The translations under genes and the position numbers were made by a program. DNA of 63,688 bases, the filler included, from Collodictyon triciliatum (lineage: Eukaryota): the NCBI GenBank assembly GCA_043381765.1. It is 13 parts of 13 records of this genome, joined end to end, with 100 filler letters (N's around TTAATTAATTAA, not from the genome) between each part and the next. Parts side by side here need not be neighbours in the genome. Positions count along the whole stretch, not along the records: positions 35,038 to 39,949 come from JBHJMP010005651.1; 12 more parts are not named here. The stretch is one strand, 5' to 3'. How positions within the stretch are numbered: the first letter of the stretch is position 1; the number at the start of each line of letters is the position of its first letter. The notes under the pieces were generated by a model that was not told the DNA's origin, searched no databases, and worked only from the letters and a program-made list of their open reading frames with translations. Below, piece by piece: positions 1 to 39,862 of the stretch.

Positions 1-3000
1 ACACAGTATGCTATCCCCAGGCTTCTATTCCCCTCCGACATTGCCGAAGGAAATATTGATGAGCAGAGTGTCATGACATACGTCTCCTACTTTCGAAATG
101 CTGCCGTATAAAAAGCTTTCATGATTTCTCCTATTTGAGATATTTTTCTCCCATGAATTAGCCGCCACATCCTTTTCTACTTACATGTTGATCGATAGCA
201 CTTCTTATCGTTCGCACTAATGATTAAATCACCTATTTGCACTGATTAGCCGCAGGTGTTGGATAGTTCATCTGAGGCTGAGATGGCCTCTAGGTTACCA
301 TAAGCCCTTCTTTTTTTTTTTTTTTTAGATAAACAATACAATTAATGGTTCTATAAATTTCCCATGAAAGACGCCCATTCGCCACATATTTTATGTAGAA
401 CCATTTATATATTCTTTCTCAAAAGGCGCCAAAGCCGCAGCGTATCCGCTACATCACTGCCCCCTCCAGCAACAGAAACAGGCGAAGACGAATTGACCAA
501 ACTACGCCGGGAGTACGACAGTTACAAGGCGGATGCCGCCGCAGCCTTGGAGTTGCAGAAGGATTCAACACACAAGAAGCAACTTGAAATGTGAGTCTTC
601 AAGCCATCTGCTTTTCTTCTTTTTTTTTTTTAATAAAAATTATAATATTATACGGATTCTTTAAAATCCTGAGATTATCACATGATGTTAAAATGTAATC
701 TACTGTCAGCGATGAGCTGCAGCGCAAATGGGCTGACAAAGAGCGCGATTATCAGAACAAGCTGGGAGAGAATCAAGCGAAATACTCTAAACTCGAGCTC
801 GAGCTCGATGGCCTACGCCAGGAGCTGCAAATTTCCCGAGCCTCAATTGTTGATGCTGGTCAATTGCAATCAGAAATCGACTCTTTACGACGACAAAACA
901 GCGGCCTGGAGTCTAAAGTATCTGGTGCAGAGGAGGAGAAAAAACAATTTAAGGTACAACTGTCAAAACTCGAGGCTGAAAAAGCACAAAATGTCAAAGA
1001 CCTCGAAGATCTTAGACAGAAGCTTGACCAAGGTAATCGAGAGTGGAAGAGCAAGTATGATGCTCTCTCTATCGAGTTGGACCAGCAGTCATCTCAATCA
1101 AAGGAGTATGCTCGTAAGTTAAGTGAATCTCAAAGCTTGGCAGACAACATCAGCCAGTTACAAATCCAGAACGAAAAATTAGACAGGAAAAACAAAATGC
1201 TAGAGTCTGACACCGACCAAATTAAGGTTCGATATAATGTATTGGACGAAGAGATGAAAGAGGCTTTGTCCAAGATCGAATCTTTGAGTAAGGAGCGCGA
1301 TGAGTCAGTGTCGAGCTGGAGTGGAAAGTATGATATCCAATCCGCTGAGCTTCGCGACTCCAGGGCCAGCAACGACGAGCTCTCCGCCAAGCTGAAAGAG
1401 GCTTTGTCCAAGTTCGAATCTTTGAGTAAAGAGCACAAGGAGTCAGTGTCGAGCTGGGGTGGAAAGTATGATACCCAATCTGCTGAGCTTCGCGACTCCA
1501 GGGCCAGCAACGACGAGCTCTCCGCCAAGCTGAAAGAGGCTTTGTCCAAGATCGAATCTTTAAGTAAGGAGCGCGATGAGTCAGTGTCAAGCTGGAGTGG
1601 AAAGTATGATACCCAATCTGCTGAGCTTCGTGATTCCAAGGTAACAATCGAGCGTCTCACAAGCAACCTCAATGAACTGAGAAGTGCATCAGCATCCTCT
1701 GGGGACCAACTGCAAGAAGCCGTTTCTTCATGGACCGACAAATATAACACTCAATCCGCTGAGCTTCGTGACTCCAGGGCCAGCAACGACGAGCTCTCCA
1801 CCAAGCTGAAAGAGGCTTTGTCCAAGATCGAATCTTTAAGTAAGGAGCGCGATGAGTCAGTGTCGAGCTGGAGTGGAAAGTATGATACCCAATCCGCTGA
1901 GCTTCGCGACTCCAGGGCCAGCAACGACGAATTCTCCGCCAAGCTGAAAGAGGCTTTGTCCAAGATCGAATCTTTAAGCAAGGAGCGCGATGAGTCAGTG
2001 TCAAGCTGGAGTGCGAAGTATGATACCCAATCTGCTGAGCTTCGCGACTCCAGGGCCAGCAACGACGAGCTCTCCACCAAGCTGAAAGAGGCTTTGTCCA
2101 AGTCCGAATCTTTGAGTAAGGAGCGCGATGAGTCAGTGTCAAGCTGGAGTGGAAAGTATGATACCCAATCTGCTGAGCTTCGTGACTCCAGGGTCAGCAA
2201 CGACGAGCTCTCCGCCAAGCTGAAAGAGGCTTTGTCCAAGATCGAATCTTTGAGTAAAGAGCACAAGGAGTCAGTGTCGAGCTGGAGTGCGAAGTATGAT
2301 ACCCAATCCGCTGAGCTTCGTGACTCCAAGGTAACAATCGAGCGTCTCACAAGCAACCTCAATGAACTGAGAAGTGCATCAGCATCCTCTGGGGACCAAC
2401 TGCATGAAGCCGTTTCTTCATGGACCGACAAATATAACACTCAATCCGCTGAGCTTCGCGACTCCAGGGCCAGCAACGACGAGCTCTCCACCAAGCTGAA
2501 AGAGGCTTTGTCCAAGTTCGAATTCTTGAGTAAGGGGCACGATGAGTCAGTGTCAAGCTGGAGTGGAAAGTATGATACCCAATCCGCTGAGCTTCGTGAC
2601 TCCAAGCATAGCAACGACGAGCTCTCAGCCAAGCTGAAGGAGGCTTTGGAGAGGATACAGTCTTTGGAGGATGAGCTCCAGGAAACAAGATCAACTTGGA
2701 CACAGAAATACAATATCCTAACCGACGATTTTAATTTATTAAAGTCCCAAAATGCAGAACTAACTTCTAATTTGGATTCATGCCATTCTGGCCGAAAATC
2801 TGTCGAGGACGAGCTGGAGCAAGTTACCAGAACTTGGACTCTGAAATACGATACACTGTCAGTCGAGTTCACCTCTGCAACTCTTCGAATCACCAAGCTC
2901 ACTAGCGAGCTAGATGACTCGCTTGCATCTGCAAAGGCATTGGAGCAACAACTGAGCCAGGAGAAGTGCGACTGGGCCCAAAAATATGAGTCACTGTCAA

Positions 3001-4786
3001 ATGAGCTGGCTGCTTCTAAGGCCCAAATAACAGAGCTGAACCACATCTTGCATCTATTGCGCGCTGAATCCAATTCGACCAAGGAATATCAAAATGAAAA
3101 CGTAGAATGGAGGCTAAGATATGATGCAGCAGCAGCTGAACTTATCCAATGTAAGGCCCAAAATACCAAGTTGGGGGCAGAGTTGAATGAATTCAGGCAA
3201 AAGTCTATGACTCTCGAGTCGCAGTTGCAGCAGAGCACTCTCGAATGGACTCTCAAATACGAAGTTGCCTCTAGCGAGCTCACCCAATCGAAGTCCCAGA
3301 GTAATCAGCTCTCGTCTGATTTGAGCCAGGTAAAATCTATGCACAAATCATTAGAGGAAGACAAATCCACTTTGGAGTCTAAGATTACATCGGCTTATGC
3401 TGAAGTATCGCAAATTAAGGTGTTGAATGCATCCCAAGAAGAAACTATTCGAAACCTTCGAGCACAAGTCTCATCCCTAGAGCTCCAAAAGAAAGCTCTG
3501 GACGAAGCAACGTCCGGAACCGAGTCCTTGCAAACAGAGCTCCAGAAATTGCGTATGGAGCTTTCCCAAGAGCAAGCGTTACGAAAGTCCTTGGAGGCAT
3601 TCAAAAACTTTGTGGTGCAAAACATCGCCATTCTTAAAGAGGATTCATCATCTGATGACTCCGAGGCAATCACCAGACTCACGGAGAAAATCGTAGAGTT
3701 AACTGAATTGGTCAACAACGAAAAACTGCAGATTACCAAGGTGCAAGAGAGAATCTCACAATACAGCCAAGATCTGTCACACTATCAAGGGTCTCTGGCT
3801 CCAAGGGAGCAAGAAGAGAAGCGGGCGTTGGAAATTCTAGTCCAGCAGTGCGATATGGAGCTTCGCTATCGATACCGAATTCTGGCCCTCGCTTCCTCTG
3901 ATTTGTGGTTGGCCAAGATGGAGAAGTTTGTCCTCGAATCCACCTCCAGCTTTACTGCAGAGAATCTGGAGATACGCTTGAAACTCTTCCGACTACAGCT
4001 TGAAGAGGTTACCTATACACTTTCAAACACTCGCCATAACCTCGCCCAACTTCACGTTGAGTATGCTGAGAAGTTGAAAGAAAATGAAGGTATTCTTATG
4101 TTGATGAGAGGAACGTCAATGTTAGTCTGCGAGAATGGAGGAAAAGGTGTGTGCACGTGCGGAAACTCTTGTCTTGTCTTGTTTTGTTTTGTCTTGTTTT
4201 GTTTTGTTTTGTTTTGTTTTGTTTTGTTTTGTTTTGTTTTGTTTTGTTTTGTTTTCCTTTCTTTTCTTTTCTTTTCTTTATGTGTTTTCTTGTTCTCTTT
4301 TTTATTTTTATATCCCAACTACCATCTCGTTTGGGTGCTACTCTGACATTCTGATTACAGGAGCGCCTCAGAAACGCCAGGTGTTCTTACACGTCTTCCA
4401 AGAACCAACCATTTTCTGGAGTCAGGATGACATATCGCAAAGAGACGGGGGAGTTTTCCAATCCTCTGAGTACCACCAAGGTGAATTTTCATGATTGAAT
4501 TGAAAATGATAGCCTTTGATGAGTACCATAACCTTGAGAAATATGTCATAGTACACTGTATAAGCTAATACTTTGCATGGTAACCGTTAAAAAGGAATCA
4601 TTGCCGACTTCCATGTTGGTGACAGTGGTACGGTTCTTGAGGGGCAGGACGTAAGTGGCAACTTCGAGTCGCTCTCTTTCACCGTCATCACATCATCCCA
4701 AACTCTCCATTTAATCGCTCCCGACGCCGAGACATACCACTTCTGGATCTTCGTTTTGGGCCGTGTTATCGAGAACTTACAAAAGG
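1..4786 (+). CDS. Calponin-homology (CH) domain + long coiled-coil + C-terminal PH-domain protein, partial at both ends
   Basis: Exons 1-105, 256-293, 426-590, 710-4146, 4361-4480 and 4595-4786 are GT-AG and frame-consistent. Exon 1 encodes IPRLLFPSDIAEGNIDEQSVMTYVSYF, the end of a CH2 domain. About 1100 aa of heptad-rich sequence follow. The last exons encode LMRGTSMLV...QKRQVFL..PTIFW...SFTVITSSQTLHLIAPDAETYHFWIFVL, a PH-like signature. Confidence 0.8.
1258..2650 (+). repeat. Coding tandem repeat, 138-bp (46-aa) unit, about 10 copies, two unit types
   Basis: The motif GCTGAGCTTCG recurs at 1344, 1482, 1620, 1758, 1896, 2034, 2172, 2310, 2448 and 2586, an exact 138-nt spacing. A variant unit occurs at 1620-1757 and 2310-2447. 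Confidence 0.95.
4170..4255. repeat. Intronic (GTTTT)n microsatellite
   Basis: Directly visible; it explains the spurious VLFCF tail of ORF 864..4346. Confidence 0.95.
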
Positions 4787-10380: not shown

Positions 10381-12399
10381 CTATATATCATCTCTTTGGA
10401 TGATTGACAGCAGAGTGGATTGGTATTGCTGTATTTGTTTTTTTGGTGTTACTGGGGATAGCATCCAGTAGATAACATTCCCCAAGGGCCTTGCATACAC
10501 ACCTTCTGCCCTTAAAGCATTGATGACAGAGCGAGCTCTATCAGATCCATATCCTTTATCAGCCGAGGAAAGTTCGACTGCAAGAATCGTCCCCAATGAG
10601 ACAACCCGACTGACTTTGGAATGGCGTGATAGGTTGACGGCAAAGTCCTCGTCCCATGAAGCAAATGAATCGTCAGACATGCTTTCGTAGCGACCTAGTG
10701 TCGTCAGGGCGGTTTGGCACCCCATAGCATGCGCTGTGTATGAATGGCCATGAAGGAGAGCATCTAGACGATTTGCTCCGTTGAAGGACTCGTATATCTT
10801 CTCCGATGCTAAGGTTACGGCCATGGGAGCTGCTCCACCAGTCAAAAGCTTCCCGTAGCAGCCGATGTCTGGTGTGATTCCAAGAACCTCACTTGTAGAC
10901 ATGTATCCTAGTCTTTTGCACCCGACGAATATCTCATCGAAGATAACAGGGATGTCCAAGCGGCGGCTCTGCTCAACAATGGCACGTTGGAAAAGCGGGT
11001 CAATCCACACCATGCCCCCAGCTCCATGAATAATTGGCTCCAAGATTGTCGCCCCAATCACTCTCTTGGCCTGTTCCCTCACGATGAAAGCAGACACATA
11101 ATTTGAGTATGCAGCGAACAGTCCGGTGCCTCTGCGCTTGTCTACGTCCATCACTTCCTCCTTTCTGTCATACCTGTCTCCAGGAACTTCGAGCCACGAC
11201 GGAACTTGTATTTGGTATTTACCCTCTTTTAATGAGACTGTCGGTGGCTCCATCCAGGCACCTTTGGGCTCGTACCAGATTTCCTTTAGGTTATACGGGC
11301 TGGGGCTTACAGCATCCATGGCGCCGATAGTATCGCCGTGGTAGCCATCTTGTATTCCGATAACGCCCATTCTAATGTACCATGGTCATATCCCAAGGAA
11401 GTGGAATTAGAGTTAGTGATATGTGTATACGAAGGATTAGTGTACGTATAATATTCTATATTACAGAAGCTAGAGGTCGGTTGCAAAATAAAAATATGGT
11501 ATTTATCATCCGACTCAAGCACTTACATCGGAGCTTTTCCTTCTGCATTTCGATTGATGGACTTCCATCGGTACCGAAAGGCCATTTTCAGCGCTATTTC
11601 GTTGGCACTGGACCCGTTATCACTGTAGAAAACCCGGTTTGCCCACCTATGTTGATTTCAACTCAACATTAGTGGCTGTGTGGACTGTGTGGTAAACCAG
11701 TGGCACATGCATATGGAAAAGCACAATCTCGAAATTGACTCTAGGCCAAACTTCAGATATTTTGGTACATACTTATTTGATGGTAGGTGTAAAAGAAATG
11801 CTATTTGTCCTCATAATTAAAGCAGAATCCCGTATACCCTTTGCCGATCGTCTTTACAGCAAGTTCAGCCAACTCAACAGCGAGGACATGGGCATTCTCA
11901 GGGAACATGACGTGGCCATATCTACCGGCTGCATATGCAGCAGACCTGAAGTGCAACCAGAACAAAATATATAAGTAAATATGTATAGCCGATTGCAGTT
12001 ACTAGTCACGTGCGATGTGTGAAAAAGAAAGGGTAGAGGATGCGCCAAACCTTGCCAGATCAACATTTCCGTGTCCTAACCCTTGCGTCCACCAGCTGCC
12101 ACAAGCGTCAACCATGTTTCGACCTGTGATGGTGTCGATATATGAATTTGGCTATGGCTATGGCTATTACTATGACTATGACTATGACTATGACTATGAC
12201 TATGACTATGACTATGACTATGACTATGACTATGACTATGACTATGACTATGACTATGACTATGACTATGACTATGACTATGACTATGACTATGACTATG
12301 ACTATGACTATGACTATGACTATGACTATGACTATGACTATGACTATGACTATGACTATGACTATGACTATGACTATGACTATGACTATGACTATGACT

Positions 12400-12462
<63 letters not shown>

Positions 12463-14115
12463 GGCTATGACTATGAGTATGAGTATGAGTATGATGATGA
12501 TTGATGATGATTGATGACTTTTTTTTCTTTCTTCGATTCAAGTGAAACTATAATTGATAACTTGATATAAAGTCATCACTAGAGAGCAGAGCATACAGGT
12601 AAGGAGTGTGAGATNNNNNNNNNNNNNNNNNNNNNNNNNNNNNNNNNNNNNNNNNNNNNNNNNNNNNNNNNNNNNNNNNNNNNNNNNNNNNNNNNNNNNN
12701 NNNNNNNNNNNNNNNNNNNNNNNNNNNNNNNNNNNNNNNNNNNNNNNNNNNNNNNNNNNNNNNNNNNNNNNNNNNNNNNNNNNNNNNNNNNNNNNNNNNN
12801 NNNNNNNNNNNNNNNNNNNNNNNNNNNNNNNNNNNNNNNNNNNNNNNNNNNNNNNNNNNNNNNNNNNNNNNNNNNNNNNNNNNNNNNNNNNNNNNNNNNN
12901 NNNNNNNNNNNNNNNNNNNNNNNNNNNNNNNNNNNNNNNNNNNNNNNNNNNNNNNNNNNNNNNNNNNNNNNNNNNNNNNNNNNNNNNNNNNNNNNNNNNN
13001 NNNNNNNNNNNNNNNNNNNNNNNNNNNNNNNNNNNNNNNNNNNNNNNNNNNNNNNNNNNNNNNNNNNNNNNNNNNNNNNNNNNNNNNNNNNNNNNNNNNN
13101 NNNNNNNNNNNNNNNNNNNNNNNNNNNNNNNNNNNNNNNNNNNNNNNNNNNNNNNNNNNNNNNNNNNNNNNNTTTTTTTTATAAAAAAAGTCAGATATTA
13201 GCGAACATAAGGTGGATGCAATGATTGGTCGGATTGATACTTAAACAGGTCACTGAGAATCCCCTTCTGTCATATGTGAAGGTTTTGTATGTAATACTGG
13301 TTCTACCTCGTGCTGCTTGTTAAGAGCTCGTATAACTTCATCAAATTGTTTCTTGTTATCTTCAAACCTTGGGAACGGATTTTTTTCCAATCATTAGTGA
13401 AAGATTAAGTTGGGCACAATGTTGTGATCTGTGTTGGGTTATTATATGCATCAGGTTATTTTGAATGACCGGATATCATTAGATAGTACCCAAATCCTTA
13501 CCACTGGTATAAGACGGTTTGTTCACCAGGGACACTTTCAGGAAGAAGCTGGGAGAAGGTGAATACTGGGACGGTGCGGCTCTGACGAGTGTGTGGATTG
13601 ACGACAGCATTCATCTTAAAATAGTGAACAAGAGCGTCCTGGTTCTTGTATTCCCCATCCAGTGTTAGAATGCAAGCGACATCATATCCGCGCATGACAA
13701 GAGCCTCATATGCCGTAAGTGTGACCGAGATTCCTCCGAGCTTCGGATCTGCCACAAGAACAACTGGATATCTCATTGGTCTGTACAGATCAGCCTGGAA
13801 TGAGAGCGTTGGGGACGGCGATAGTATTCCACCTGCTGTCTCTACCAAGGCCACAGCAGCACTCTCATCATCCTTCCGGTCTCTAAAGTATGCGGAGACA
13901 GTTTCCTGCAAGGACGCTTGAATCTGTGAATCCGGGACGATTCGGTTTTCCTCAGCAGCCGAGAGATGAGGCGACGCTGCCCTTCTCCACGAGTAAAGGC
14001 ACTTTGCAGTTAATCTCTCGTCTGCCTTGCAAAAGCGATGCACAAACTCGGCGTCACCAACGAGCTGGTCCTTGGCCATGTCGAAACCTGTTTGCACTGG
14101 CTTCACGTATAGAAT
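10381..14115 (-). CDS. BIO3-BIO1: Bifunctional dethiobiotin synthetase / 7,8-diaminopelargonic acid aminotransferase, 5'-partial with an internal N gap
   Basis: BioD motifs: YVKPVQTG, LVETAGGILSP, VLVADPKLGGISVTLTAYEAL. BioA motifs: DACGSWWTQGLGHG, YAAGRYGHVMFPE, VFYSDNGSSANEIALKMAF, GYHGDTIGAMD, LEPIIHGAGGM, PVIFDEIF, PDIGCYGKLLTGG, LLHGHSYTAH, ARPLGNVIY. Introns are GT-AG and the stop TAG is at 10381. The N-terminal GKT P-loop exon is not on the contig. Confidence 0.95.
12169..12460. repeat. Intronic compound microsatellite, (GACTAT)n then (GAT)n
   Basis: Directly visible; it produces the spurious DY/TM repeat ORFs. Confidence 0.95.
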
Positions 14116-16430: not shown

Positions 16431-18414
16431 TGCCTTAAGCCAGAGCAAAACATGTCGTAAATATGTGCGAATGTATTCTGCACAAGTTTCCCATCGTTTC
16501 CATCTGCAAGCAAATGGCCCGTCGCTGAAATGTGTGATAAATGCGAAAATATCGACCGAAAGACCACCAAAACACACGAATATATCGAAGTTGAGAATAT
16601 CTTATGGAGTTATCAAGGAGAACGACTTGATCGAGGAGGTAGAAAGGAAAATCAACGCGATGGCTGAAATCAAGTCAAATGTCGAGAGCGAAATGAAAAA
16701 GGTTTATTCATGAAGTGCTCAAGCTATATATGTTTCTTTTCTTTTTTTCTGTTCATTTCCTCAAATATTCAATTCCTTAGATTGATGCTGAGGAGCGAGA
16801 CCAAAATGCAAAGATCGACAATTTGTACGATGATAATGTGCAGAAAGCAGCACAGCTGAAGGAGAAGCTGAAAGAAACTGTTATCATGCCTGTTATCATC
16901 GTTATTGTCCGATATTGACAATCTTAATTGTTTTTTTGTTGTGTGATTGTTTCCATAATTCTCTAAACATGGAAAATGATGATGCTAACCACGATAATTA
17001 ATTCAGGCTATTCTAGCCTTGCAGCCAGCGAGTAGCAAAATTAAGTACATACAGCATCGGATGGCGGCATCCGAGAACATTCTATGGCACTCCATAACCA
17101 CGCTCAGAAAGCCCAAGGAGATATACGAGCGCGACAGATTCGTGACCAAGCTTTTCAAGAGCGCCATATTTGCTCACACAGCTTTGCAGATAGACATCGA
17201 AGAAGTCGGCAATGTGGATGTGGAAAGCCGCAAGCAAGCATCGAGATTGGCGGCAACGTTGTGATAGGAGAAGGCTGGGTGCATGTGCTGAAGGAAATCC
17301 ACGCAAAGTGTGAGTCGGCCTTGGAGGAGCTGCGAAGAGAAAACACCGAGTGGCAGAGACTCATGAACGAGACAGACAAGCACATGAAAGAGTTGGAGCA
17401 TGAGGTACAAACGCATCGCGTAATGAAGGAACATATTGCAAAGATGGAGCAAAAGAAGATGAAATCAGAAGAGGAAATGAAGAGAATGGGCATGGACTTG
17501 TATCAGAAGCCGTGGAAATACAACATCAAAGACCATGTGTTTCAGAAGAAGGTCGGGTCAAATAGAAGTGAAGTCCTACAGTTTTCTAATCCATGGGGAA
17601 TCGCAGCTCATCCAAAGACAAAGCAAATATTCGTTGTTGATTGCAGTAACCATCACGCTCAAGTACTGAATGAATGTTTGAGCTTTTCCTGTAGGTTTGG
17701 CACGAATGGCTCAGGCCCAAGCCAATCCAGCAATCCAATCGGAATCACCATTTCGCATGATGGATGCATCGCTGTTTGTGACCGTTCCAGTCATCGTGTG
17801 CAAATCTTTGATGATAACTTCAAGATGATTGAGACAATCCAATCGGGTCGCAAAAGAAGCACACAAAGCACAGAATCCAGTGAGTTTGGCGGATTCTACA
17901 ATCCATTTAATGCATGTTTTGACAGAGAAGGCAATCTTTATGTTACAAACTATGGCAAGAATCAATTAGACAAGTTCAACCGTGTGTTTGAGTACGAACG
18001 CTCGTTTGCGAGAGCATCCTCTGGCGATTAAGGAATCGCATCCCCGGAGGGCATTTGTGTGACTGCAAAGAGCGAAGTGTGTGATTGGACACGGCGGAGA
18101 CAAAGTTAATATTTATTATGTGATGGGGAGATTTCTGCGCACTGTCAGAATCAATAATGTGCCGGGTCATGTTTCGATTGCAGAAGGTCCAAACAACACA
18201 ATTGTGGCGAGTGAACGTGGAAATAATCACATCCGCGTTTATGACACGACAAAAGACAATGTCGTTGTTCACACGGTTGGCACATCGTCGCAATCTTCAT
18301 CAAATGATGGACAGTTTCATAGTCCGATGAGATTCTTCTTTGATCCGGATCAGAAACTCTATGTTTGCGAGTATGCAAAATCATTGCATACAAGTGTTTG
18401 GAAAAAGTGAATGA
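16431..18414 (+). pseudogene. Disrupted B-box / coiled-coil / NHL-repeat (TRIM-NHL-like) gene
   Basis: It contains a B-box-like CDKC...THEYIEV segment, coiled-coil exons and NHL repeats (QFSNPWGIA..IFVVDCSNHHAQV, NPIGITI..VCDRSSHRVQIF, QFHSPMRFFF..LYVCEY). An in-frame TAA at 18029-18031 is followed by GIASPEGICV. Frameshifts occur near 16610, 17230, 18075 and 18378. Confidence 0.7.
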
Positions 18415-35037: not shown

Positions 35038-35288
35038 AAAAAAAGATAAAAAAAGATAAAAAAAGATAAAAAAGATAAAAAAGATAAAAAAAGATAAAAA
35101 AAAGATAAAAAAAGATAAAAAAAGATAAAAAAAGAAAAAAAAAGAAAAAAAAAGATAAAAAAGATAAAAAAGATAAAAAAAGATAAAAAAAGATAAAAAA
35201 AGATAAAAAAGATAAAAAAAGATAAAAAAAGATAAAAAAAGATAAAAAAGATAAAAAAAGATAAAAAAAGATAAAAAAAGATAAAAAA
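35038..35288. repeat. (A6-7GAT)n repeat at contig edge
   Basis: Directly visible. Confidence 0.9.
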
Positions 35289-35449
35289 GCACGCAAGAAA
35301 CGACGAGATCAGAGCGAAGTTCACCAGTATTGCTCTTTAGCCCCTTTCTTTTTTCTTAAAAAACTTCATGTCTCTAGCCAACCAAACAGCAAAACCAGGA
35401 AGAGAGCGAAAACAGAGCCAGAGTCAAGAACCCTTTCCTCGTACCGTCC

Positions 35450-38400
35450 ATGGCGCGAAGCAGGGCTGACCCAAACGAATTGACGGCACTGGTAACAGAC
35501 TTTCAGCCCAAAGTGTTCCAAGGCTATATATTTTCAAGGAATCTTCCCGCATGGAACCAGCTCACGTTGCTTAGTCTCAGCGACAAAGGACTCCCACAAG
35601 TACCAGAGAGTGTTATGACACTCACCGGACTCATCAACCTAATTATCAGCAAAAACATGGTTTGGTTACATACAAATATAATTTCATTATTATTATTATT
35701 ATTATTATTTTGTCAACAGGTTCATCATCGTCTTGCTTTTGCTATGGCTTGAATTAGATATGTATCATTGGTGAATGAAACATGTATAACCGAATGAAAA
35801 AACTGAACCTTTAGTTCCAATCCTTACAAGACTTCAGAGGATTTAGTAAGCTTGCACACTTAGACATTTCGGATAATGAGGTTCTCATTTAATTTGCTCC
35901 CTTTTCAATGCTAGCCTCTTAAATGGCCAAATAATCTCAACTCTCGATTCTCGTACATGTTTATGCAATATAGGGGTTTACAAGCTTTTTTTTTTATATA
36001 AAAACAACCATATGCTATCTAGTTTAGAGAATTCCCACCAAGTATCAGTAGCTTAACAAAGCTAAGTGCCCTCCTTGTACACGGGAATCCCGTGAGTTAT
36101 TACTTTGACAATATCACATGATATAAACTCTAAAGTATATGGCTAACTCTACCTCTTGGCGAAAAGATTGAAGAGATACCCCCATGGATATCCACATTAA
36201 TCTTTTTGGAAGCACTTCAAATTGAAAGCAAAGGGACAGTCAGTATCAAGAGAGCTGGAGAAGAATTAAGGAGGATGAAATGCTACAATAACATAAAGAA
36301 GAGCCCAGACATGATAAAGAGCTATTCAGATAGTCTCAAGTCCTTAAAAATTATGATATCTTTCCAAAACGAAAACATTGGAAACCTCTCCAGCGTTATA
36401 ACCAAATTAAAAGAATACGACTTCGTCGACCTTTCAAAAAACATGGTTTGATGACAATTATCCTTTTTCACAAATTTATGGTTTATTACTCGGAATTATT
36501 TATCCTGATATTTTTTTTTGCAATGCATTCTTCCTTAACTAGGTTCGAATTTTCTAACATAAAATTAATAGATCATAGACATACCAACAGACTTTGGTGC
36601 CCTATCAAGGCTATATGGTGTTAACCTTTCTCATAACAAGGTCTCTCTAATTTACTGCAGCCTTCATTTCATTTAGAATATCTCTAACACCCATGCGTAA
36701 TACAGCTCAGAGCTATTCCGGATAGCCTCAGCGTACTGCAAAATCTAGAGGAATTGAACCTTGGATCCAATGAGGTGACAATTTATGTCTTTTTGAAATT
36801 CCAACAAGTGCATATTTTTTTTCGATCATATAGCCATCCCAATTAGTTACTATTCTTTTAGAGGCTTCTAAAACAAAACTAGTAAATGATGATTAATATC
36901 CATATTGCAATATTTTTCGATGATTCTAGCTTGTGGATGTACCTGTATGTCTTCAAGGGCTGATAAATTTGACCAAATTATGCATACATGACAATAGGGT
37001 AACCCACTTTCCTATTCTGTTTTTGATGAATACAGGTAAATGAAGTTCCAAAATACACATCCCACGATGACTTTTTTTTCTGTAGGTGTTGGACATACCA
37101 CCATGGATAACGCAATTATCCAAGCTGATCAATTTTCAAATAGAACAAGACGGGAAAATATACATAGAACGCGGTCCCATAGGAATCAGGAGCATGCTCT
37201 TTTATGACAACTCATTTAAAATGAATGGAATGACAATGACAATCAGAGATTCTGTGAAAGGAATAAAACATTCTGTCATCAAATCAAATATGGAAATAGA
37301 GGACATAACTCCTGCGATGATTCAAGAATTCAAGAACTACTTAGACATCAATCTTTCTACTAACAAGGTTTGCATATTAATAGCTCATTTTTGGAATCAA
37401 TATGATGGCTTAATAATATACAATTTTTCTGGAAATAACCGATTCTTTTTTTTAAAATTATTTATCGAATAAACGAAAATGAAAGCACCATTTTTATCGC
37501 ACCCTCGAAACAGATCATCTCCCTCACACCAAACTTTGGAGAACTCACTGAGCTGGTTGAAGTAAATTTTAGTGATAATAAGGTAATTATTATTGATGTT
37601 ATGAAGAGTGCGCCCAAATACCACAATTAGAATAATTTGTGTTTTTTTTTTAACTTCTTGTTTCTTAGATTATCGACATTCCGGACAATTTCACTAAACT
37701 CATAAAGCTCCAACATATTTATCTGAGAAAAAATGAGGTATCGACGAGTAGATAATCACTTGTATCTCTTGAGTTTGCTATGATAGGTTTTATTTCGATA
37801 TTTGCTCAATTACATATATATATAAAAACTAAAACAACCCCTTATGTCTCTGTACATCCAAGATGTCAACTGTTCCAAGCCAGCTGAGTACCCTGACGAA
37901 TATAATGAGACTTGATATATCCTTGAATAAAGCATGAATTTATTAGTATCTCATTAGCGATGTATTTTTATTATTTTATAACATTGGTTTAAGCGTCTTT
38001 CTCTAGGGCTGCAATATTCAAAATACATATTATCTGGAAACATGTTCATTAATATTCATACCTTTATCTGTGGAATAGATCGAAGACATCCCTGTGTGGA
38101 TAACTCGTCTCGTCTACCTTACCGAATTTCAGATCGAGCACAAAGGTATCATTAGTGTAAAGCGGTCTCCACGGGGAATCACAGCTCTGCCATGCTGGAC
38201 AAACCACAATAAGCTTGATGGGATGACGAAGTCCATTTCAGAGTCACTCAGGGGATTAGAATATTCCTTAATATTAAGCAGCAGAAATATTACAGAATTA
38301 ACATCAACTATAATCGAACATATAAAGGAATATGACAGCATCAATTTTTCCAAAAACAAGGTTTTCTTTTATGCCATTTTACATGTGATGCACTGGTCCT

Positions 38401-39862
38401 CAATTGTTCAAATTTAATATCAGTTGTATATAGATTATATTCACAGAAAAATAATAATCAAAGAGACTTCCTCTGCATTTTTCCAAGCATTTGGAAAACC
38501 TTCTATTTTTTGAGTATATGATACGTGTTACACAGCTAACTGAGAGATATAGAAAGCAACATAATGCTTATGTTTACCATAGCTTACTAGATTTATTGAC
38601 GAAATTAAGTTTGTATCTCCGTTAAAAATAATCGACGTATCCCATAACATGGTGAGGTTTCCTCAGGATGGGTTCATTTTATTCGTGCCATATTTACAAT
38701 TTACTCTAATATTGCTGTACTACAGATATCAGAACTTCCTCTTGGACTATCATCCATAACTAGCTTGTCATTTATTGGACTTAGTAACAATAATGTGATT
38801 ATCATTATAATGAAATTATTTCGGGATTCCATCTTTATTCCCATCCTTTTTCATATAATCTCTATTTTTCAGTTCACATCTATTCCGGATTGCCTGGGCA
38901 ATTTGACGAATCTCCATGGACTCTTGATTCATAACAATGCGGTATCACATGAAAATTTATTTCACTTACTATCAGTTTTTTGTGACAGAGGCATATTGTA
39001 AGTATAAATCTCCTAATGACACGCTTTTAACCTAGCAGATTGAGGATATTCCAGTATGGATAACTCGGCTTGTCAAGCTCATCGACTTACAAATCGAGCA
39101 CGAAGGAGTCGTCAGCGTAAAGCGGTCTCCACGAGGAATCACAGCTCTTCCATGCTGGACAAACCATAATAAGCTTGATGGGATGAAGAAATCTATTTCT
39201 GAATCACTCAAAGGACTGGTGTACTCAATCATTCACTCCAACCGCAACATCACAACAATCGACTCATCCATGATTGAGGACTACAAGCAATATGAGAGCA
39301 TCGATATATCCAGCAACAAGGTCGTTACTGATTTGCATGGCTATTATAACGCTTCACAATAAACTACATCAGTTGATACATAATTTTTTTTTAAAGATTA
39401 TATGTATCTTACATTTAAGGACATTTATATATATATATTCACAACGGTCTACATATGCAGATATCTATACTGCCAGAGGATTTCAAAGAGCTCACGGTTC
39501 TCAAGCATCTTAACATCTCGCACAACCAGGTAGATTTGTACCTTTTATAGACGTGATAGTGATGTTTTTTTTTTCCGGTCACAGCATGCAAAATAACTTT
39601 TCTCCTATTAAGTACTTATTGATGCAAAACTGACAGGTTACCGGGCTACCTTCAGGAATATCTCTGCTAACAAACCTTTTCCAAATGGAACTGCATAATA
39701 ATATGGTATTAAACAATTCATTATTTCAACTACATTTTCATTTGCAGGAAAACATTCAAAAGAAACTCATTCTGTAAAAACTTTGTATCCTAGTTCACCT
39801 ATGTCCCATCATGCATGAGCTCACTGATAAATCTTCACAAGCTTTTGATACATAATAACACG
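35450..39862 (+). CDS. Modular leucine-rich-repeat protein, 19 exons seen, 3'-partial
   Basis: Exons: 35450-35659, 35815-35880, 36023-36091, 36167-36445, 36572-36640, 36706-36774, 36930-36998, 37086-37367, 37514-37582, 37669-37737, 37863-37931, 38079-38360, 38583-38651, 38726-38794, 38873-38941, 39039-39320, 39461-39529, 39637-39705, 39794-39862. All introns are phase 0. Each short exon encodes one LxxLPxxLxxLxxLxxLxLxxNx unit. Confidence 0.92.

What the first reader, a model, noticed from the sequence alone, without database searches (positions are those of the whole stretch)
35450..39862. LRR gene built from a repeating exon cassette: three single-LRR exons plus one exon carrying an unrecognised insert domain
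Seen: all 18 introns are phase 0, and 13 exons are exactly 69 nt (one 23-aa LRR each), plus one of 66 nt. Every fourth exon is 279-282 nt (starts 36167, 37086, 38079, 39039). Each long exon opens like an LRR (IEDIPxWITxLxxLxxxQIE), continues into a conserved ~50-aa non-LRR segment (KG.+S+KR.PRGI..+..+.N..K.DGM.KSIS+SL+GL), and returns to LRR register (Y..I.LSxNK). The super-unit is about 163 aa. The short exon before each long exon usually ends LxxHxN, so the last exon seen predicts a fifth copy beyond the contig end. Known: one-LRR-per-exon symmetric exons underlie exon shuffling in LRR-ROCO/NB-ARC genes of the brown alga Ectocarpus, and island domains form ligand sites in plant LRR receptors. 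Inference: this may be a cytosolic (no signal peptide visible), shuffle- or skip-competent recognition protein with a periodically repeated island domain that I do not recognise. It is the best candidate for an undescribed system in this window.
Basis: partly seen in the sequence, partly recalled or inferred. Interest (0 to 1): 0.78.

Follow-up and report, generated by a model that had tools for sequence, protein, structure and literature searches.

The report
Expressed LRR gene with repeating exon cassette
This is a real, transcribed gene of an unidentified freshwater protist whose leucine-rich-repeat arm is built from a repeated four-exon block, and the supposed unknown insert is best read as two strongly altered leucine-rich repeats rather than a new domain.

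Summary
On the 4.9-kb piece 35038-39949 there is a 19-exon, all-phase-0 gene start: 13 exons of 69 nt, one of 66, and four of 279-282 nt at every fourth position. RNA contigs from three runs show 14 of the 18 predicted junctions, including a GC..AG intron.

The 94-aa long exon is a conserved module. A profile of it finds 49 proteins at E<=1e-3, and the strong hits are almost all Diphylleia rotans transcripts. There the module sits in LRR arms fused to Roc-COR, kinase, RING-NHL, NYN RNase or a SAM-like tail.

The module has the length and register of four LRRs. It aligns almost without gaps to four canonical repeats of solved LRR proteins. Units A and D are ordinary LRRs. B and C are not recognisable with the gene's own LRR profile. 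In AlphaFold models only unit B loses its concave strand.

So it is a lineage-specific irregular LRR turn recurring every seventh repeat, not an island domain. No exon skipping was seen. The C-terminal domain lies beyond the contig.

The parts
35370..35449 (+). 5' untranslated region; apparent mRNA 5' end near 35370
   Evidence: An X1 contig starts at 35370, preceded by 15 loose letters. An X9 contig starts at 35376, preceded by 20 other letters. The transcribed part holds no ATG upstream of 35450 (read).
35450..35659 (+). Exon 1 (210 nt, 70 aa): start codon, non-hydrophobic N-terminus, first two LRR-like turns
   Evidence: The junction 35659/35815 is seen in X1 and X9.
35815..35880 (+). Exon 2 (66 nt, 22 aa), one LRR
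   Evidence: Junctions seen in X1.
36023..36091 (+). Exon 3 (69 nt), one LRR, cassette position c (ends LLVHGNP)
   Evidence: Junctions seen in X1.
36167..36445 (+). Exon 4 (279 nt, 93 aa): first and most diverged copy of the 4-unit module
   Evidence: Junctions seen in X1 and X2. It is 33-43% identical to the other copies.
36572..36998 (+). Exons 5, 6, 7 (36572-36640, 36706-36774, 36930-36998; 69 nt each), cassette positions a, b, c
   Evidence: Junctions seen in X1.
37086..37367 (+). Exon 8 (282 nt, 94 aa): second module copy
   Evidence: Junctions seen in X1 and X2.
37514..37931 (+). Exons 9, 10, 11 (37514-37582, 37669-37737, 37863-37931; 69 nt each). Exon 11 is followed by a GC..AG intron
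   Evidence: The joint 37931/38079 with ends GC..AG is seen in X1.
38079..38360 (+). Exon 12 (282 nt, 94 aa): third module copy, used as query and folded alone
   Evidence: It is covered by the X1 spliced contig.
38583..38941 (+). Exons 13, 14, 15 (38583-38651, 38726-38794, 38873-38941; 69 nt each). These junctions rest on sequence prediction only
   Evidence: No junction for introns 12-15 is among the joints printed, and unspliced X1 contigs cover 38331-38526 and 38793-38900.
39039..39320 (+). Exon 16 (282 nt, 94 aa): fourth module copy, 73% aa and 75% nt identical to exon 12
   Evidence: The junction 39320/39461 is seen in X2 and X9.
39461..39862 (+). Exons 17, 18, 19 (39461-39529, 39637-39705, 39794-39862; 69 nt each). 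The reading frame stays open at the contig end
   Evidence: Junctions seen in X9, whose transcript then continues into an exon-16-like fifth long exon.

Best explanation
The region holds the first 766 codons of a transcribed, cytosolic protein. This part is one very long leucine-rich-repeat (LRR) arm of about 32 LRR-length units on the contig, with more beyond it.

The arm is built from a four-exon cassette: three 69-nt exons with one 23-aa LRR each, then one 282-nt exon holding four LRR-length units A-D. The cassette was duplicated in tandem as a unit, and the youngest copies lie at the 3' end.

The 'insert' is units B and C of the long exon. These are LRR-derived repeats that have drifted from the consensus. 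Unit B carries the conserved signature G-x7-P-x-G-I-x2-L-P-C-[WY]-x-N, which follows the 'QIE' strand of unit A. It is predicted to replace its concave beta-strand with short helical turns. The concave sheet of the solenoid would therefore be interrupted, and probably kinked, once every seven repeats.

The module is a hallmark of a multigene family otherwise seen almost only in the collodictyonid Diphylleia rotans. There the same kind of arm is fused to Roc-COR GTPase, protein kinase, RING-NHL, NYN RNase or SAM-like parts.

Most likely working: the arm is the partner-binding or autoregulatory part of a multidomain signalling protein. With five or more modules, it is most probably a Roc-COR (ROCO) type. 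The variable ordinary LRRs would make the binding surface, and the conserved irregular turn would act as structural punctuation that segments the arm.

Shown: gene structure, splicing, expression, family membership, LRR register. Inferred: the fold of unit B, the kink, the C-terminal domain, and the function.
For: Gene model and phases.

Splicing and expression: 14 of 18 junctions appear in RNA contigs of X1, X2 (a metatranscriptome) and X9, including the GC..AG intron. The contigs continue into further exon-16-like and exon-17-like exons.

Family: the profile of the four long exons finds 49 proteins at E<=1e-3 and 19 at E<=1e-10 among 1.84 billion representatives. Of the 30 representatives looked up, 20 are D. 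rotans transcripts from 18 Trinity genes.

Domain partners in relatives: Roc, COR-A, DUF4062, AAA_16, Pkinase, RING + NHL, NYN RNase.

LRR register:
- The module profile aligns over positions 2-97 to 93-95 residues of canonical LRRs in solved proteins. Whole-protein E-values are LIC10831 3.2e-13, SHOC2 3.8e-6 and RSU1 3.4e-5.
- It also aligns to ordinary LRR proteins P0037, P0042 and P0045.
- Units A and D match the gene's own 23-aa LRR profile (E 9.5e-5 and 1.8e-4, all 23 columns).
- Protein-language-model neighbours of the whole exon (0.93) and of residues 21-72 alone (0.84-0.88) are all LRR clusters.

Fold:
- The model of relative P0003 has pLDDT 82.5, with 10-residue block means of 91-97 across the module. 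Strands lie at 94-96, 139-141 and 163-165 and helices at 84-88, 131-136 and 152-158, in normal LRR spacing. Unit B shows only short elements (E107-109, H110-114, H116-119).
- The window exon folded alone gives the same pattern.
- Whole-model fits to LRR structures reach Z 16.5 but at rmsd 8.8 A. Pieces on either side fit at 2.4-3.9 A. This is consistent with a kink.

Cassette duplication: short exons at the same cassette position are 35.2% identical against 25.5% for other pairs, and 0 of 10,000 label shuffles reach that difference.

Conserved gene architecture: in D. rotans isoform pairs, 8 of 8 divergence points inside the LRR arm fall at the same intra-repeat position as the window's introns. 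Seven fall right after N+1, with V as the first read-through residue. Two of these sites lie directly before a module and one directly after.

ROCO guess: relatives with 4 or more module hits are P0001, P0019, P0061 (all with Roc) and P0056 (C-terminus not in the transcript). Those with kinase, RING-NHL, NYN or SAM-like tails have 1-2.
Against: - Units B and C are not recognised by the gene's own LRR profile (E 0.73 and 0.63).
- The module model alone found only 1 of 48,161 solved chains at Z>=2 (Z 2.5).
- Structural fits across the module leave about 35-55 residues unaligned: 123 aligned over model range 8..167, and 130 aligned over 80..264.
- For the exon folded alone, only one of five models was confident (80.0 against 63.3, 56.2, 55.8 and 50.3).
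- I could not see model coordinates, so the 'kink' is deduced from secondary structure and rmsd figures.
- No multi-module stretch was folded.
- The C-terminal domain is not on the contig, and two metagenome scans to extend it found nothing.
- No whole genome is held, so copy number in this organism is unknown.
- Identity to D. rotans proteins is only 22-43% in the rows printed, and no orthologue was identified.
Confidence: 0.66

Rival explanations
1. The middle ~47 residues of each long exon (units B and C) form a true island. This would be a conserved non-LRR excursion presenting a specific binding site, repeated five or more times along the arm. The protein would then be a multivalent receptor for one conserved ligand or partner.
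For: - B and C fail profile comparison with the gene's own LRRs.
- Unit B has no concave strand in either model.
- The module alone has no structural match (1 of 48,161 chains at Z>=2).
- Aligners skip 35-55 residues across it.
- Some unit-B positions are among the best conserved of the module in 18 copies: P31 89%, P38 89%, C39 94%. That is typical of a functional site.
Against: - The module keeps 4 x about 23.5 aa. It aligns almost gap-free to four canonical repeats in solved LRR proteins and in ordinary LRR proteins.
- Unit C keeps LRR helix/strand spacing in the models.
- Language-model neighbours of residues 21-72 alone are all LRR clusters. The scores are below 0.9, so this is a lead only.
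- Pfam LRR_14 weakly aligns through residues 1-69 of exon 4.
Confidence: 0.15
2. The symmetric phase-0 exons are used to generate receptor diversity by exon skipping or ongoing exon shuffling. This is what has been proposed for brown-algal LRR-ROCO genes, and it would make this a candidate variable immune-type receptor.
For: - Every exon is a multiple of 3 in phase 0, so any exon or cassette can be dropped or doubled in frame.
- Cassettes were duplicated as units, and the 3'-most copies are the most alike. Exon 12 against exon 16 is 75% nt identical. Further exon-16-like exons in RNA differ at 11 of 122 and 5 of 61 letters.
- D. rotans relatives have many Trinity isoforms per gene.
- The brown-algal precedent is read from PMC11378527 (abstract and section 11) and PMC3341825 (listing and two passages).
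Against: - The assembled RNA contigs join exons 1-12 and 16-19 in plain genomic order. Contigs cannot show rare isoforms, and 5 joints were not printed.
- In D. rotans, 8 of 8 isoform divergences inside LRR arms look like intron read-through at a donor site, not exon skipping.
- Within the contig the introns of different cassettes are no longer alike. The only self-match is exon 12 against exon 16, 83% over 174 nt. Most duplications are therefore old.
- Here the exons are 69 nt in phase 0. In brown algae they are 72 bp in phase 2. The design is therefore unlikely to be inherited from a common gene.
Confidence: 0.15
3. The arm is a purely structural or scaffolding LRR protein, for example cytoskeletal or flagellar, with no effector domain and no receptor role.
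For: - The closest-scoring relative, P0056, shows only LRRs in 665 aa.
- Solved matches include axonemal LRR proteins (9ijj_4X, 8glv_Eb).
- The conserved punctuating turn suggests architecture rather than recognition.
Against: - P0056 is an incomplete transcript.
- Of the relatives scanned with Pfam, 11 of 16 carry an effector domain behind the arm. P0003 adds a tail I read as SAM-like, which has no Pfam hit.
- All three multi-module relatives with a known C-terminus carry Roc.
Confidence: 0.1

Closest known systems
Uncharacterised LRR multidomain proteins of Diphylleia rotans (EukProt EP00002 transcripts such as P0001, P0061, P0019, P0008, P0020, P0022, P0003)
   Same: - They carry the same 94-aa module, with full-length matches at E down to 6.4e-28 for whole proteins.
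- The module recurs along the arm every 128-276 residues, mostly about 130-185.
- Introns lie at the same intra-repeat position, after N+1 in phase 0, and modules begin and end at exon borders.
   Different: - Identity to the window protein is only 22-43% in the rows printed, and no orthologue was identified.
- The number of ordinary LRRs between modules varies, whereas here it is always three.
- Their C-terminal domains are known. This gene's is not.
SHOC2 / RSU1 / Leptospira LIC-type 'typical' 23-24-residue LRR proteins (Pfam LRR_8, LRR_14)
   Same: - Repeat length and consensus are shared.
- They are the best structural matches to the relative's model: SHOC2 7sd1_C at Foldseek E 6.5e-12 and LIC10831 4u06 at Z 16.5.
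- They are among the best-listed sequence matches to the module profile.
   Different: - Those solenoids are regular. Here every seventh turn is predicted to lack its concave strand.
- Whole-model superposition is poor: TM 0.32-0.36 and rmsd 8-9 A.
Brown-algal LRR-ROCO genes with one LRR per exon (Ectocarpus, Saccharina)
   Same: One LRR per exon, with equal-length symmetric exons that allow in-frame duplication or loss. They have an LRR-Roc-COR architecture, which is also seen in this family's relatives (PMC11378527 abstract and section 11; PMC3341825 passages).
   Different: - Exons there are 72 bp in phase 2. Here they are 69 nt in phase 0.
- No periodic long exon or irregular turn is mentioned in the parts I read.
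- Alternative splicing of LRR exons is reported there and was not seen here.
Island domains of plant LRR receptor kinases (BRI1, PSKR1 type); features recalled, not tested by any search
   Same: A conserved non-consensus stretch interrupts a long LRR arm.
   Different: - Plant islands are extra, non-repeat insertions in extracellular receptors.
- Here the stretch keeps the four-repeat length and register.
- The protein has no signal peptide.
- The stretch recurs periodically.

Membership tests
Leucine-rich repeat superfamily (typical 23-24-aa class; Pfam LRR_8 / LRR_14) | Tandem repeats of 20-30 aa with the LxxLxLxxN(x)L core | tested here: met
   The 13 exons of 69 nt each give one 23-aa repeat ending ...L/I-x-[LIV]-x-x-N-x. 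Units A and D of the long exon match that profile at E 9.5e-5 and 1.8e-4.
Leucine-rich repeat superfamily (typical 23-24-aa class; Pfam LRR_8 / LRR_14) | Score above Pfam's gathering cut-off | tested here: inconclusive
   Single long exons score below the cut-offs: LRR_14 at 13.3 bits against 40, and LRR_8 at 16.8 bits against 27. The spliced protein could not be handed to the tool. Relatives pass easily, for example P0001 with LRR_14 at 206 bits.
Leucine-rich repeat superfamily (typical 23-24-aa class; Pfam LRR_8 / LRR_14) | Solenoid fold with a parallel concave beta-sheet | tested here: met
   This rests on predicted models only. Relative P0003 matches LRR structures at Z 16.5 and E 6.5e-12. 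One turn per module lacks the strand.
ROCO proteins (LRR-Roc-COR) | Roc GTPase followed by a COR domain | not testable with these tools
   The contig ends inside the LRR arm at 39949. No genome is held. Two metagenome scans found no extension. Among relatives, P0001, P0019, P0043 and P0199 have Roc plus COR, while P0005, P0061 and P0195 show Roc only.
Brown-algal type shuffling LRR exons | One LRR per exon, with equal-length exons all in the same phase | tested here: met
   There are 13 exons of 69 nt, and all introns are phase 0. Length and phase differ from the algal 72 bp in phase 2.
Brown-algal type shuffling LRR exons | Transcripts with different LRR exon combinations (alternative splicing) | tested here: inconclusive
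   RNA contigs show only the plain exon order. However, contigs drop rare forms and 5 joints were not printed.
LRR island domain (plant receptor-kinase type) | A non-repeat insertion that breaks the LRR register | tested here: not met
   The module is 93-94 aa, or 4 x about 23.5. It aligns with few gaps to 93-95 residues of canonical repeats. Units C and D resume normal spacing in the models.
LRR island domain (plant receptor-kinase type) | Extracellular arm behind a signal peptide | tested here: not met
   Exon 1 starts MARSRADPNELTALV... with no hydrophobic stretch. The RNA 5' end lies about 80 nt upstream, with no earlier ATG in the transcript.

The most novel reading that the evidence does not exclude
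The conserved turn P-x-G-I-x2-L-P-C-W-x-N is not mere punctuation. It would be a repeated docking site, so that the arm displays five or more identical sites spaced seven LRRs apart. The family would then be a lineage-specific innate-immune-like or prey-sensing receptor repertoire of a deep-branching predatory protist group. Its members share the same arm and carry Roc-COR plus DUF4062/STAND, kinase, RING-NHL or NYN RNase parts. The repertoire would still be expanding by tandem duplication of in-frame exon cassettes.
Probability: 0.15. Interest if true: 0.65.

Novelty: new variant of a known kind. Interest (0 to 1): 0.42.

Why it matters
It documents, with RNA support, a second and apparently independent case of LRR arms built from in-frame one-repeat exons. 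The known case is brown algae (72 bp, phase 2). This one is 69 nt in phase 0 and comes from a poorly sampled protist lineage.

It defines a previously unnamed, family-specific irregular LRR module that recurs periodically. The module marks a gene family that combines one kind of arm with many effector domains. No paper listed by my two searches held both 'leucine-rich repeat' and Diphylleia, and only one, on dynein, held it with Collodictyon.

If the periodic turn really breaks the concave sheet, it offers a natural example of how very long LRR solenoids are segmented. For the scan, it also shows that an 'unrecognised insert' in a repeat protein should first be tested for repeat register.

Tried and rejected
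- Own-genome search: no genome is held.
- Word-indexed homology search of exon 12 among longer proteins: 60 candidates, none at E<=1e-3.
- Other copies in the window: tblastn of the spliced product gave 29 HSPs, none outside 35038-39949. tblastn of the family proteins gave 168 HSPs, none outside.
- Metagenome scans to extend the contig or find genomic relatives:
  - The single-exon query gave 176 pattern matches, none confirmed.
  - An exact 28-nt pattern from exon 19 gave 0 matches.
- Module model alone against 48,161 solved chains: one chain at Z 2.5. A weak or missing match does not show a new fold.
- Half-module self-comparison (A+B against C+D): E 0.14, so no internal repeat signal.
- Earlier notes of this scan: nothing by place or by sequence.
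- Organism identity: the BioDA-like ORF 10381-11385(-) has a best hit of only 45% identity, so no close relative is in the collection.
- Runs X3-X7 (lake-water and subsurface metagenomes) hold 5-7% of the words. Only X4 was laid, and it gave three short DNA contigs. I draw no habitat claim from the others.
- I first read the strand spacing in the P0003 model as 13 + 32 residues, which suggested a hairpin plus a long excursion. I rejected this after comparing with the canonical repeats of the same model. E107-109 sits about three residues later than the single bridge residue (E81) seen after each normal strand, so it belongs to the ascending loop and is not a new concave strand.
- Differences between the window and X1/X9 in exons 1-12: 7 synonymous and 9 non-synonymous, with 6 of the 9 non-synonymous in exon 4. 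I used 16 of the 35 listed rows. I dropped 4 non-coding rows and 15 rows at 39068-39669, where paralogous contigs mix. This is too few for a selection test.


Full report
**1. What the window is**

The 63,688-base window is a chain of 13 pieces of about 4.9 kb, separated by N runs with a short linker. The finding lies on the piece 35038-39949. This piece starts with a (GATAAAAAA)n microsatellite (35038-35290) and ends inside the gene. No whole genome is held for the window. The other twelve pieces hold no further copy. tblastn of the spliced product gave 29 HSPs, all inside the piece. tblastn of the family proteins gave 168 HSPs, none outside.

**2. The observation**

- The ATG is at 35450 and there are 19 exons.
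- Thirteen exons are exactly 69 nt, one is 66 nt, and the first is 210 nt.
- Four long exons start at 36167, 37086, 38079 and 39039 (279, 282, 282 and 282 nt).
- All 18 introns are 65-222 nt and in phase 0.
- One detail differs: exon 11 is 37863-37931 and its intron starts with GC.

The model is confirmed by RNA. One run of uncertain type (X1), a freshwater metatranscriptome (X2) and a third run (X9) hold parts of the stretch.
- A 1464-nt X1 contig joins exons 1 to 12 at exactly the predicted borders, including the GC..AG intron.
- X2 shows introns 4, 8 and 16.
- X9 shows introns 1, 16, 17 and 18.
- That is 14 of 18 junctions among the 15 joints printed. Five more joints were not shown, and introns 12-15 remain predictions.
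- X1 also holds low-depth unspliced contigs (38331-38526 and 38793-38900). It therefore contains pre-mRNA or DNA as well.
- The 15 loose letters before 35370 in X1 look to me like the end of a template-switch oligo. This is recalled, not tested. If so, the mRNA 5' end lies about 80 nt before the ATG.

After exon 19 the X9 contig continues into a second exon-16-like start, with 5 other letters in 61. X1 and X2 contigs show an exon-17-like piece, 139 other letters, and then an exon-16-like piece, with 11 other letters in 122 (X1) and 3 in 30 (X2). So at least one more cassette follows the contig end, and probably more than one.

**3. The cassette was duplicated as a unit**

Short exons in the same position of the cassette are more alike than others: 35.2% against 25.5% aa identity. 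None of 10,000 label shuffles reached that difference. Position c keeps V-P-x-C...L-x-N-L...L-x-I-H-x-N in 4 of 5 copies.

Long exons 12 and 16 are 73% (aa) and 75% (nt) identical. The other pairs are 33-43% (aa). At DNA level the only self-match is exon 12 against exon 16, 83% over 174 nt, and introns are not alike. The duplications on the contig are therefore old, while the copies beyond the end are younger.

**4. Relatives**

Pfam sees only weak LRR signals in the long exons. A profile of the four copies, run against 1.84 billion representatives, gave 49 proteins at E<=1e-3, 19 at E<=1e-10 and none at E<=1e-30.

Of the 30 representatives I looked up, 20 are Diphylleia rotans transcripts from 18 Trinity genes. 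The rest are unnamed environmental fragments or ordinary LRR proteins of other organisms, such as a Chamaesiphon protein and a pseudoscorpion protein.

Identity of the window protein to the D. rotans proteins is 22-43% in the rows printed. A housekeeping-type ORF elsewhere in the window (BioDA, 10381-11385 minus strand) has a best hit of only 45%. The organism therefore has no close relative in the collection, and I leave it unnamed.

In D. rotans the module recurs along the arm. Starts are 118, 272, 457 in P0061; 101, 237, 375, 511 in P0019; 179, 323, 454, 584 in P0056; and 85, 264, 424, 700, 828 in P0001. A half-module (profile positions 1-47) also closes some arms.

The arms are fused to several kinds of partner (the SAM-like reading rests):
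- Roc and COR-A, with or without DUF4062 and AAA_16
- protein kinase
- RING plus NHL
- NYN RNase
- a tail I read as SAM-like from its sequence, which has no Pfam hit

Isoform pairs of the D. rotans transcripts reveal their intron positions. Of 19 pairs compared:
- 8 diverge inside the LRR arm, all at the border where the window has its introns. Seven diverge right after the residue following the repeat's Asn, with V (a GT read-through) as the first new residue. One diverges directly after the Asn.
- 1 diverges inside a module-like stretch, by a 49-aa in-frame insertion.
- 3 diverge outside the arm.
- 7 do not diverge.

Two of these sites lie directly before a module and one directly after. Module-sized exon borders and the phase-0 one-repeat design are thus shared by the family. 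Environmental ORF fragments read ...N-K-V... past the end of the module in the same way.

**5. What the 'insert' is**

I divide the 94 residues into units A (1-23), B (24-47), C (48-70) and D (71-94).

Evidence that all four are LRR-derived:
- The length is 4 x 23.5 residues.
- The module profile aligns over positions 2-97 to 93-95 residues of canonical repeats in solved proteins: LIC10831 139-233, SHOC2 93-185, RSU1 79-172. In all, 185 distinct sequences match at E<=1.
- It aligns the same way to ordinary LRR proteins P0037, P0042 and P0045. In these alignments the conserved P-x-G-I-x2-L of unit B lies on the usual P-x-x-I-x-x-L of an LRR.
- A and D match the gene's own 23-aa LRR profile at E 9.5e-5 and 1.8e-4.
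- Language-model neighbours of the whole exon, and of residues 21-72 alone, are all LRR clusters. Scores are 0.93 and 0.84-0.88, and the latter are leads only.

Evidence that the middle is not ordinary:
- B and C do not match the gene's own LRR profile (E 0.73 and 0.63), and A+B against C+D gives E 0.14.
- The module model alone matched only one of 48,161 solved chains at Z>=2.

Models:
- The D. rotans protein P0003 (351 aa, 17-row alignment) gave pLDDT 82.5. Ten-residue block means are 91-97 from residue 21 to 140, which covers most of the module (79-170).
- In P0003, canonical repeats show a helix five residues into each exon-unit and a strand at +15 to +17. Units A, C and D keep this spacing: H84-88/E94-96, H131-136/E139-141 and H152-158/E163-165. 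Unit B instead shows E107-109, H110-114 and H116-119, with no strand where one is due. The L-P-C-W stretch is helical.
- Window exon 12 folded alone shows the same pattern. Its best model has pLDDT 80.0, but the other four are at 50-63.
- Whole-model comparison with LRR structures gives high Z but poor superposition: 4u06 at Z 16.5 and rmsd 8.8 A over 225 residues, and Foldseek TM 0.32-0.36. Pieces fit well: 139-270 at 2.4 A, and 8-167 at 3.9 A with 123 aligned.

I read this as one aberrant turn that interrupts the concave sheet and probably kinks the solenoid. I could not inspect coordinates, so this step is inference.

Across 18 module copies the best-conserved part is A plus B. P5, L14, E20 and G23 are at 100%, P31 and P38 at 89%, and C39 at 94%.

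**6. How it most likely works**

The start of the protein has no hydrophobic segment, so the arm is cytosolic. I take it to be the partner-binding or autoregulatory arm of a multidomain signalling protein.

Relatives with four or more module hits carry Roc in 3 of 4 cases, and the fourth is an incomplete transcript. Relatives with a kinase, RING-NHL, NYN or SAM-like tail have one or two. A Roc-COR continuation is therefore my best guess for this gene, but it is only a guess.

The ordinary LRRs vary and would form the binding face. The conserved irregular turn recurs every seventh repeat and would segment an arm that is otherwise too long for a single horseshoe.

Exon skipping or shuffling as a working diversity mechanism remains possible, because every exon is in-frame. 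The RNA contigs show none of it. Contigs cannot show rare forms.

**7. Comparison with what is known**

One LRR per exon with in-frame exons is described for brown-algal ROCO genes. I read the abstract and section 11 of PMC11378527. For PMC3341825 I read the search listing and two passages. There the exons are 72 bp in phase 2. Here they are 69 nt in phase 0, so the design probably arose separately.

Plant-type island domains (recalled) differ in that they break the repeat register and are extracellular.

My two literature searches on Diphylleia, Collodictyon or CRuMs with genome, LRR or Roco terms listed no paper on such a family. No listed paper held both 'leucine-rich repeat' and Diphylleia, and one, on dynein, held it with Collodictyon.

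**8. Verdict**

The 'unrecognised insert domain' is a conserved, lineage-specific pair of altered LRRs, one of them truly non-canonical, inside a module of four repeats.

The gene is a new variant of a known kind: a cytosolic LRR arm of a probable ROCO-like multidomain family. It is of moderate interest, mainly for the independent origin of exon-per-repeat architecture and for the periodic irregular turn.

Noticed in passing
window 1-63688 (N runs listed): The window is not one contiguous stretch. It is 13 pieces of about 4.9 kb joined by 44-N spacers around a 12-base linker. Three further N gaps lie inside pieces (12615-13172, 46705-47145, 57177-57186).
   Followed up: yes
window 37932-38078: Intron 11 uses a GC donor (GC..AG). 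The junction is present in a spliced RNA contig of run X1.
   Followed up: yes
window 38795-38872: Intron 14 is 78 nt, in frame and free of stops, so retention would add 26 residues. An unspliced X1 contig covers 38793-38900.
   Followed up: partly
window 35370-35376: The RNA contigs of X1 and X9 begin within 6 bases of each other but carry different loose letters in front, 15 and 20 letters. X1's look like a cDNA-synthesis oligo (recalled). X9's could be an upstream exon or a spliced leader.
   Followed up: no
window 10381-11385 (-) and 13498-14115 (-): These ORFs belong to a fused dethiobiotin synthetase / DAPA aminotransferase (BioDA) gene. The aminotransferase part has a best hit of only 45% identity, to a chytrid protein.
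   Followed up: partly
window 699-4346 (+): A 1215-aa open frame encodes a coiled-coil-like protein with many near-identical repeats of roughly 60 aa (...SLSKERDESVSSWSGKYDTQSAELRDS...).
   Followed up: no
window 17045-18031 (+): An open frame with NHL-repeat-like segments lies behind a coiled-coil-like stretch. It has no tblastn match at E<=1e-5 to the RING-NHL relative P0020.
   Followed up: partly
window 35038-35290, 40050-40150, 54300-54980 and others: Long microsatellites and low-complexity runs sit at many piece ends: (GATAAAAAA)n, (GTGAAA)n, and T/C-rich runs.
   Followed up: no
D. rotans proteins P0052 vs P0001 (residue 601): One isoform carries a 49-aa in-frame insertion starting with V inside a module-like stretch. 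It is probably a retained phase-0 intron at a position where the window's long exons have none.
   Followed up: partly
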